Assembly: GCF_009914755.1 (NCBI RefSeq)
Contig: NC_060927.1
Reading direction: 5' to 3' (one strand)
Source: the human T2T-CHM13v2.0 reference genome, Homo sapiens
Length of the DNA: 64,000 bases
Program-made: the position numbers and the translations under genes
Notes under the pieces: model-generated
What the model was told of the DNA's origin: nothing
What the model saw: the letters and a program-made list of their open reading frames with translations, nothing else
The model's database searches: none
Part shown: piece after piece, positions 31,662 to 33,190 of the stretch
Layout: each line of letters begins with the position of its first letter
How positions within the stretch are numbered: position 1 is the stretch's first letter

Positions 31662-33190
31662 TTTATTACCTGGGCATAGATGTCACAGGCAGAGGGGATA
31701 GGAGTTGAGAAGCCATAACTCATGTTACTTAGTGAGGGTTTTCTGATTGGGGTTGAAGTTTCTTTAGGCATCACAATAACATGGTCTTAGCTCTCATATC
31801 TCAGAGCAGGCAGTGACCCCATCCAAAACAACACACTGGCAGTGACAGATGGATTCCCATAGGACATCCCAGGAGCCACAGCCATAGCCGCAAGCATGAC
31901 CAGTGACAGGGTACCCTGCATGGGGCATGGAGCAGAGACGTTGGAGCCCTTGGATTTGGAATTAGTAGTGCTATTTAAGAAGGGGGTGAGAAGTCAGAGG
32001 ACAGAAGAGATGAACTTGAAGGAAGACAAATGACAAAATGTCTTTAAGAAAGAACAAAAGAGATTCTAATAGGAGAGATACTAATCACTAAATGCCTGAC
32101 ACCAGGATTGACACATAGAAAATACTCAGTAAGTGGAATTACACTTACTTAAATGTCTTTAAGAAAGAACAAAAGAGATACTAATAGAAGGAGAGGGAAG
32201 GAACAGAAACCAGGGATCTCTCAGCTTCACCCTCCAGGGGAAATAGGGATGAGAGAAGAAGAGTTGGGGACAGTGACTCAGACCCACTGGCCTGGCACAA
32301 TGAGATGGTGGGTAGAAGCAGGAGCATGGGAATAGGAAAGTAGCCTGAGCTGGAGGGAGAGGGGAGTGTTCAGGCGATGTATTCCTCACTTAGTGAGGAA
32401 TAATCTGCTACGACTTCCGATGCTAAGATAGAAAACACGTCGCTTAGAGTCACACACCCAGGCCAGGTGCGGTGGCTTAGGCCTATAATCCCAGCTACTT
32501 TGGGATGCCAGGATGGGCGGATCACCTGAGGTCAGGAGTTTGAGACCAGCCTGACCAATATGATGAAATCCCATCTCTACTAAAAATACAAAAGTTAGCC
32601 AGGTGTGGTGGCATATGCCTGTAGTCCCAGCTACTCAGGAGGCTGAGGCAGGAGAATTGCTTAAACCCAGGGGGCAGAGGTTGCAGTGAGACGAGATTGT
32701 GCCACTGCACTCCAGTCTGAGTGACAGAGCAAGACTCAGTCTCAAAAAATAAACAAATAAAAAATAGAGTCACACACCCCCTGTGGGAGAGAATGAGGGA
32801 TAGATCAGAGGCCTTCATCGGCCACTTGTAATCTTCACCTACTCAAGTACCTGCAAGAAGTCACTGTTTCCAAGCTGAGATTATTCCAGCAACTTCTGGG
32901 CCAGGAATTCCATGAAGAGGAAAAACAAACTCTGCCATAATTGTTAGCTTCTGGGATTTAGGATGGACTGGGATGGATTTGGGGAAGGATCTGGGGATGG
33001 ATTGGATAGAGGCAGAAGTCCAGGGAGCTGAGCATGGGTGGGGAAATGCCAGGTCTCTTACTATGGGAATCCTTTGTTGCCTCTATCTTCTCATCCACAG
33101 CTGATCCTGAGATGTGCTGGGCCTCCCCTGGAACCACCAGCTCAAGGGGGTGAAAATGAATAACAGTAGAAACAGCTTTACTTTTTATGT
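31662..33190 (-). pseudogene. Unprocessed resistin-like (RELM) pseudogene B
   Basis: Last exon 31915-31794 follows a CATGCAG acceptor and reads [40 protein letters not shown]. First coding exon 33181-33062 reads ...LELVVPGEAQHISGSAVDEKIEATKDSH with a phase-1 GTAAGA donor. The middle exon (about 32780-32392) is degenerate and split by an Alu. AATAAA at 31667-31662. Confidence 0.88.
32461..32765 (+). mobile_element. AluS inserted in the middle exon of pseudogene B
   Basis: TSD AGAGTCACACACCC at 32446-32459 and 32766-32779. Confidence 0.9.

What the first reader, a model, noticed from the sequence alone, without database searches (positions are those of the whole stretch)
31662..33190. RELM pseudogene B: open last exon, Alu-disrupted middle exon, no start codon
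Seen: the last exon is still in frame, with [11 protein letters not shown]...CHCQC nearly identical to RETNLB, but it ends early (TACSEI*). The first coding exon aligns without gaps over 28 codons (LELVVPGEAQHISGSAVDEKIEATKDSH versus LQLINPGSTQCSLDSVMDKKIKDVLNSL) but has no ATG and a frameshifted signal peptide. The middle exon (CACAG acceptor at 32783-32781; VFYLSIGSRSRL versus LSCASVKSQGRP) carries an AluS with a clean TSD. The poly(A) signal context TTTATTACC matches RETNLB. Inference: the locus was dead by, or was killed by, the AluS insertion. The better-preserved last exon could reflect gene conversion.
Basis: partly seen in the sequence, partly recalled or inferred. Interest (0 to 1): 0.75.

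Follow-up and report, generated by a model that had tools for sequence, protein, structure and literature searches.

The report
Ancient duplicated RELM pseudogene, mislabelled processed
Next to the human gut-defence gene RETNLB lies a dead copy that was published as an intronless primate retrocopy, but it still carries its introns and splice sites, so it is a broken tandem gene duplicate, likely older than primates.

Summary
On the minus strand, 33191-31662 holds three decayed RELM coding exons, two introns with GT-AG ends, an AluS with an exact 15-bp target duplication in the middle exon, no usable ATG, and a poly(A) signal shared with RETNLB. The last exon is already known: Hu et al. 2015 list it as psiRETNL (ENSG00000241777) and call it a processed pseudogene inserted in early primates. 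That label is wrong. The DNA they aligned to exons 1-2 is the end of intron 2, and the locus is collinear with RETNLB through intron, exon, intron, exon and 3' end (64% over 899 nt, 0 of 100 shuffles). An origin before primates is likely, from published spacings in whales and three residues shared with a blue whale model, but trees do not reject a primate origin. Whether the Alu killed the gene is unresolved. A second pseudogene lies at 51261-52750. Verdict: known locus, corrected class, modest interest.

The parts
33062..33191 (-). Coding exon 1 remnant: no ATG, frameshifted signal-peptide region, 28-codon open core (33146-33063), donor GT at 33061
32781..33061 (-). Intron 1 (281 nt, GT..AG); both ends align to the introns of RETNLB and pseudogene A; lacks the interspersed repeat those two share in mid-intron
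32765..32780 (-). Middle exon, 5' piece (16 nt, includes one TSD copy 32765-32779)
32460..32764 (+). Full-length Alu (AluS by recalled motifs), antisense to the pseudogene; second TSD copy at 32445-32459
32390..32444 (-). Middle exon, 3' piece; Alu-free exon is 71 nt against 81 in RETNLB; conserved Cys and Gly changed, Cys-Pro end deleted; donor GT at 32389
31916..32389 (-). Intron 2 (474 nt, GT..AG), homologous to RETNLB intron 2; its 3' end is what Hu 2015 aligned to exons 1-2
32036..32190 (.). Inside intron 2: 40-nt direct duplication (38/40) flanking a 60-nt inverted copy (96.7%) of 35860-35918
31794..31915 (-). Last exon: 35 codons in frame, 1-nt deletion, early TGA; the published psiRETNL
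31662..31667 (-). Poly(A) signal AATAAA in RETNLB-like context; no A tail follows
51261..52750 (-). Second RELM pseudogene (A): TATA at 52741, three decayed coding exons, over 1 kb of upstream homology with RETNLB
62011..63791 (-). RETNLB, the living paralog used for comparison
   Evidence: annotation supplied

Best explanation
This is a dead, intron-containing copy of a RELM gene, made by tandem DNA duplication, likely before primates arose, and it is predicted to make no protein. Shown: exon-intron layout, intron homology, loss of the start codon, frameshifts in all three exons, the Alu insertion, no A tail. Inferred: unequal crossing-over in an early placental or older ancestor gave three gene slots (RETNLB, A, B); B lost function and decayed neutrally; the Alu probably landed in an already dead exon (about 60%). 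The last exon looks better kept because it encodes the cysteine-rich head that is constrained in every RELM, not because of recent gene conversion. Confidence by step: unprocessed duplicate 0.97, no protein 0.97, no recent conversion 0.9, older than primates 0.75.
For: Collinear alignment with RETNLB from intron 1 to past the poly(A) site: 576/899 identical, score 10277, shuffle maximum 2355, 0 of 100. Intron 2 alone 0 of 500 shuffles and 0 of 352 real-DNA windows; intron 1 0 of 500 and 0 of 456 (global). The 105 nt before the last exon fit RETNLB intron 2 (0 of 1000 shuffles), not its spliced exons (76 of 1000). Four GT/AG sites at homologous places. Age: introns only 64-67% identical to RETNLB, against 8% non-CpG divergence of the Alu. 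Hu S1 coordinates put extra last-exon hits in minke whale 5.3 kb and a further 18.4 kb from Retnl1; the human spacings are 4.8 kb (L1 removed) and 18.1-19.5 kb. Dolphin, baiji, orca, pig, elephant, manatee and elephant shrew also have one extra hit. A blue whale UniRef model (P0083) is the only one of 131 scored family proteins with all three odd residues L-W..I of this exon, and its 3' half joins the pseudogene at 93/92 support.
Against: Protein trees cannot place the copy: AU tests do not reject grouping with simians (p 0.33; 0.34) or primates (0.39), nor the whale half with minke Retnl1 (0.46). The whale half has only 26 columns, was chosen after I saw it, its genomic place is unknown, and it shares a Cys-to-Tyr change with minke Retnl1 that the human copy lacks. 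Spacing matches are coordinates only; pig (15.7 kb) and elephant shrew (44.4 kb) fit neither slot, and Hu lists no extra hit in tarsier, mouse lemur, bushbaby, tree shrew, horse or armadillo. The middle exon is weak alone. Upstream homology is marginal (3 of 100 shuffles). Death before the Alu is not supported under the strict count (6 of 26, p 0.2-0.4).
Confidence: 0.75

Rival explanations
1. Truncated processed (retrotransposed) pseudogene inserted in early primates, as published by Hu et al. 2015.
For: Only the last exon is found by a translated genome search; Hu lists the hit only in simians among primates.
Against: The upstream flank matches RETNLB intron 2, not spliced exons; both introns and exon 1 are homologous; no A tail after AATAAA.
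Confidence: 0.02
2. Tandem duplicate that stayed functional until the AluS insertion in a primate ancestor broke the middle exon.
For: Strict count of hit conserved codons (6 of 26) fits decay since the Alu (p 0.20-0.37); last-exon pN 0.21 is half of pS 0.41, so selection acted for part of its history.
Against: Lenient counts exceed Alu-age decay (13 of 33, p 0.0007-0.02; 10 of 30, p 0.01-0.12); frameshifts in all three exons; no intact B-like protein seen among the 272 family proteins compared (only the best 120 of 346 hits were returned).
Confidence: 0.3
3. The last exon was overwritten from RETNLB by gene conversion, masking an older or more decayed locus.
For: Last exon 74% vs 50% in the exon 1 and 2 cores (p 0.0002); pS 0.41 vs 0.65 (p 0.10); conserved codons hit 6 of 22 vs 7 of 11 (p 0.06).
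Against: RETN control gives 76/105 without conversion; at 18 codons shared by all three, RETNLB matches only RETN at 5 and only this copy at 3; the family shows the same exon pattern.
Confidence: 0.12

Closest known systems
psiRETNL / hRELM-homo seq (ENSG00000241777; Hu et al. 2015, PMC4467842; first seen by Yang et al. 2003 as cited there)
   Same: Same locus: the human sequence in their S5 Fig matches window 32019 to about 31780.
   Different: They annotate 97 nt, call it processed and primate-born, and state that no introns are present. Here it is a 1.5-kb three-exon duplicate with both introns.
Human RETNLB (RELM-beta), Pfam Resistin PF06954
   Same: Exon layout, splice positions, last-exon motif, poly(A) context.
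   Different: No start codon, frameshifts in every exon, Alu in the middle exon, six of the family's cysteines changed or lost (N-terminal Cys plus C55, C67, C76, C107, C108 in gorilla numbering).
Rodent Retnla/Retnlb/Retnlg cluster
   Same: A tandem cluster at the orthologous locus (Hu 2015).
   Different: Rodent copies are intact. No residue or tree evidence ties this copy to alpha or gamma; the AU test neither supports nor rejects it (p 0.35).
Ruminant Retnl pseudogene with a Bov-tA2 insertion in exon 1 (Hu 2015)
   Same: A SINE inserted in a RELM coding exon.
   Different: There it hits the only Retnl gene; here a spare paralog.

Membership tests
Resistin/RELM family | Cys-rich C-terminal domain matching PF06954 | tested here: met
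   41.9 bits, cut-off 25; best PDB sequence hit is RELM-beta 1rh7, E 4e-9
Resistin/RELM family | Three coding exons with introns at homologous places | tested here: met
   the middle exon is weak on its own
Functional RELM gene | ATG, signal peptide, open frame of about 110 codons, full Cys set | tested here: not met
Processed pseudogene | Introns absent, exons joined | tested here: not met
   processed model 76 of 1000 shuffles, duplicate model 0 of 1000
Processed pseudogene | Genomic poly(A) tail after the signal | tested here: not met
   no A run after AATAAA; alignment runs on past RETNLB's annotated 3' end
Duplicated (unprocessed) pseudogene | Homologous introns, same strand and cluster as the parent, disabling lesions | tested here: met
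Duplicated (unprocessed) pseudogene | No translated product | not testable with these tools
   sequence predicts none; the supplied annotation places it inside an intron of predicted lncRNA LOC105374033
Unitary-type loss (ortholog functional in other mammals) | An intact ortholog in another species | tested here: inconclusive
   no intact B-like protein among 272 compared; no mammalian genomes could be searched
AluS | Subfamily diagnostic positions | tested here: inconclusive
   motifs fit AluS as recalled; no repeat library on hand; divergence lies within that of local Alus

The most novel reading that the evidence does not exclude
The placental ancestor had a three-gene RELM cluster, humans carry the fossils of two lost paralogs, and the rodent alpha/gamma genes descend from one of those slots. 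The 'rodent-specific expansion' would then be partly a loss in primates, masked by concerted evolution. The three ancient slots alone have about 0.7; the rodent link is untested and brings the whole to 0.15.
Probability: 0.15. Interest if true: 0.6.

Novelty: already known. Interest (0 to 1): 0.33.

Why it matters
It corrects a published label (processed, primate-born) and suggests that the mammalian RELM locus was multi-copy long before rodents. Reviews still describe humans as having two RELM genes and rodents a lineage-specific expansion (PMC13647132, passages). Mouse RELM-alpha and gamma are widely used models without a human ortholog, so knowing whether humans lost such genes bears on how those models are read. 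The locus itself has no predicted function.

Tried and rejected
Protein trees did not place the copy. One search used a wrong frame for pseudogene A exon 1, corrected, which also dropped 18 of 53 rows for speed. A homolog search with the pseudogene's last exon found no candidate (weak evidence). Pfam did not detect exon 1. The protein profile did not detect the middle exon or the signal remnant (13 of 67 rows left out: non-mammals, resistin, odd models, two simians). Upstream homology to pseudogene A was not significant (13 of 100); downstream flanks were not significant (54 and 44 of 500). MAFFT's default alignment of intron 1 misplaced the copy; only the E-INS-i run aligned both ends. One search miscounted last-exon conserved codons as 21; one search uses 22. 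Yang 2003 could not be read. Recent gene conversion and processed origin were rejected.

Full report
Observation. The last exon translates as described and ends early. It passes the Pfam Resistin cut-off (41.9 vs 25 bits). A six-frame search of the whole genome with RETNLB's last exon gave 4 matches among 8 candidates at E<=1: RETNLB, a chromosome 19 hit at the place of RETN, this locus (E 4e-8) and one chance-level hit (E 0.8). The exon 1 core ranks 3rd of 127,834 positions under a family profile. The Alu has an exact 15-nt target duplication. The middle exon is weak alone: not seen by the profile, 5 of 500 shuffles in DNA.

What is already known. Hu, Tan and Irwin 2015 (PMC4467842; I read parts 1-5 of 6 of the text, S1 Table and S5 Fig) list human psiRETNL, ENSG00000241777, as a truncated processed pseudogene inserted in an early primate lineage, equal to 'hRELM-homo seq' of Yang 2003 (not read; known only through Hu). 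Their S5 human sequence matches window 32019 to about 31780. The supplied RefSeq table has no row for it. Searches: 'hRELM-homo' found only Hu; the Ensembl id found nothing in main texts; 'resistin-like, unitary pseudogene, gene loss, primates' found nothing; searches listed no other paper on the locus by title or abstract start. Subscription papers, unseen supplements and current GENCODE may hold a correction.

It is a duplicate, not a retrocopy. With the Alu and one target copy removed, the locus aligns to RETNLB from intron 1 through the poly(A) site: 576 of 899 identical, 0 of 100 shuffles. Intron 2 aligns by itself (281 of 439; 0 of 500 shuffles, 0 of 352 real windows), as does intron 1 (0 of 500, 0 of 456). 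The stretch that Hu aligned to exons 1-2 scores 2312 against RETNLB intron 2 (0 of 1000) and 1137 against spliced exons (76 of 1000). Donors and acceptors sit at homologous places and no A tail follows the signal.

It cannot encode a RELM. The start is gone, and the one in-frame upstream ATG meets two stops. The signal region is frameshifted, the Alu-free middle exon is 71 nt instead of 81, and the last exon has a 1-nt deletion. Of 33 codons conserved in at least 90% of 43 eutherian rows, 13 are changed or deleted.

Gene conversion. The last exon is more alike than exons 1-2 (74% vs 50%), but the excess is mostly nonsynonymous (pN 0.21 vs 0.46, p 0.0006); the synonymous difference is not significant (0.41 vs 0.65, p 0.10). 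Working RELMs show the same pattern (76% vs 55-56%, 41 rows). RETN on another chromosome shares 76 of 105 bases with RETNLB, this copy 78, each with 9 synonymous differences in 23 codons. Recent conversion is rejected; an ancient one stays possible.

Order of death and Alu. The Alu differs from the majority of 15 local Alus at 19 of 233 non-CpG sites. If decay began then (8-12% per site), 13 of 33 hits is too many (p 0.0007-0.02) and 10 of 30 substitution hits is borderline (p 0.01-0.12). After dropping uncertain and CpG codons, 6 of 26 fits (p 0.20-0.55). I lean 60:40 to death first. Hu's S5 shows the last-exon frameshift and stop in all five catarrhines aligned.

Age. Introns are 59-67% identical among the three human copies, far beyond Alu-age divergence. 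Hu's table lists extra 'exons 1 and 2 missing' hits beside Retnl in four cetaceans, pig, elephant, manatee and elephant shrew. Minke spacings are 5.3 and 18.4 kb; human spacings are 4.8 kb without the L1 and 18.1-19.5 kb. The other cetaceans give 5.2-5.4 kb, and Hu's squirrel monkey 'processed' hit lies 4.8 kb away, which fits slot A rather than this copy. Pig (15.7), elephant (7.7), manatee (7.1) and elephant shrew (44.4 kb) match less well or not at all. Blue whale model P0083 has a doubled last-exon stretch whose second half alone, of 131 scored proteins, carries the three odd residues of this copy; the two group at 93/92. Two unnamed library proteins, P0165 and P0221, group with pseudogene A at 97/93. 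Against this, no AU test rejects a primate origin and none of this rests on aligned genomes. RETNLB and A share a mid-intron repeat and over 1 kb of promoter region that B lacks: B either split first or lost them.

Verdict. A known locus whose class needs correcting, plus a second pseudogene that Hu's human list lacks. No function is predicted. Interest 0.33.

Noticed in passing
window 51261-52750 (-): Second RELM pseudogene with TATA box, three decayed exons and over 1 kb upstream homology to RETNLB; absent from Hu's human list and from the supplied table. Its 81-nt middle exon (51802-51882) is exactly an exon of predicted lncRNA LOC105374034. Hu's Ensembl RETNLB span (14 kb) would extend over it.
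   Followed up: partly
window 63520-63535 (-): RETNLB exon 1 in this assembly has an 8-nt duplication relative to the reference in Hu S5, giving a stop after 13 codons; the annotated product starts at a later ATG without signal peptide. Homozygous RETNLB loss-of-function is reported in PMC3868571 (two passages read, variant not named).
   Followed up: partly
window 32036-32190 and 35860-35918: A 40-nt duplication flanks a 60-nt inverted copy of DNA 3.7 kb away (96.7% identical): looks like a recent templated insertion from repair or template switching.
   Followed up: partly
window 31961-31960: Chimpanzee, orangutan, macaque and baboon carry about 77 nt in intron 2 that the human sequence lacks (Hu S5): a human-lineage deletion, fixed or polymorphic.
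   Followed up: no
window 55743-61846 (+): Full-length L1 between RETNLB and pseudogene A; ORF1 338 aa open, ORF2 split into 858 and 368 aa. Published spacings suggest that chimpanzee and bonobo have it and Old World monkeys do not.
   Followed up: partly
window 33548-34003 (-): First exon of predicted lncRNA LOC105374033 lies just upstream, holds a TATA-like box at 33668 and splices over the whole pseudogene; no homology to the promoters of RETNLB or A was found.
   Followed up: partly
P0165, P0221: Unnamed library proteins share several residues with pseudogene A and keep a start and signal peptide; their middle part is not RELM-like, so they may be gene models of a less decayed A copy.
   Followed up: partly
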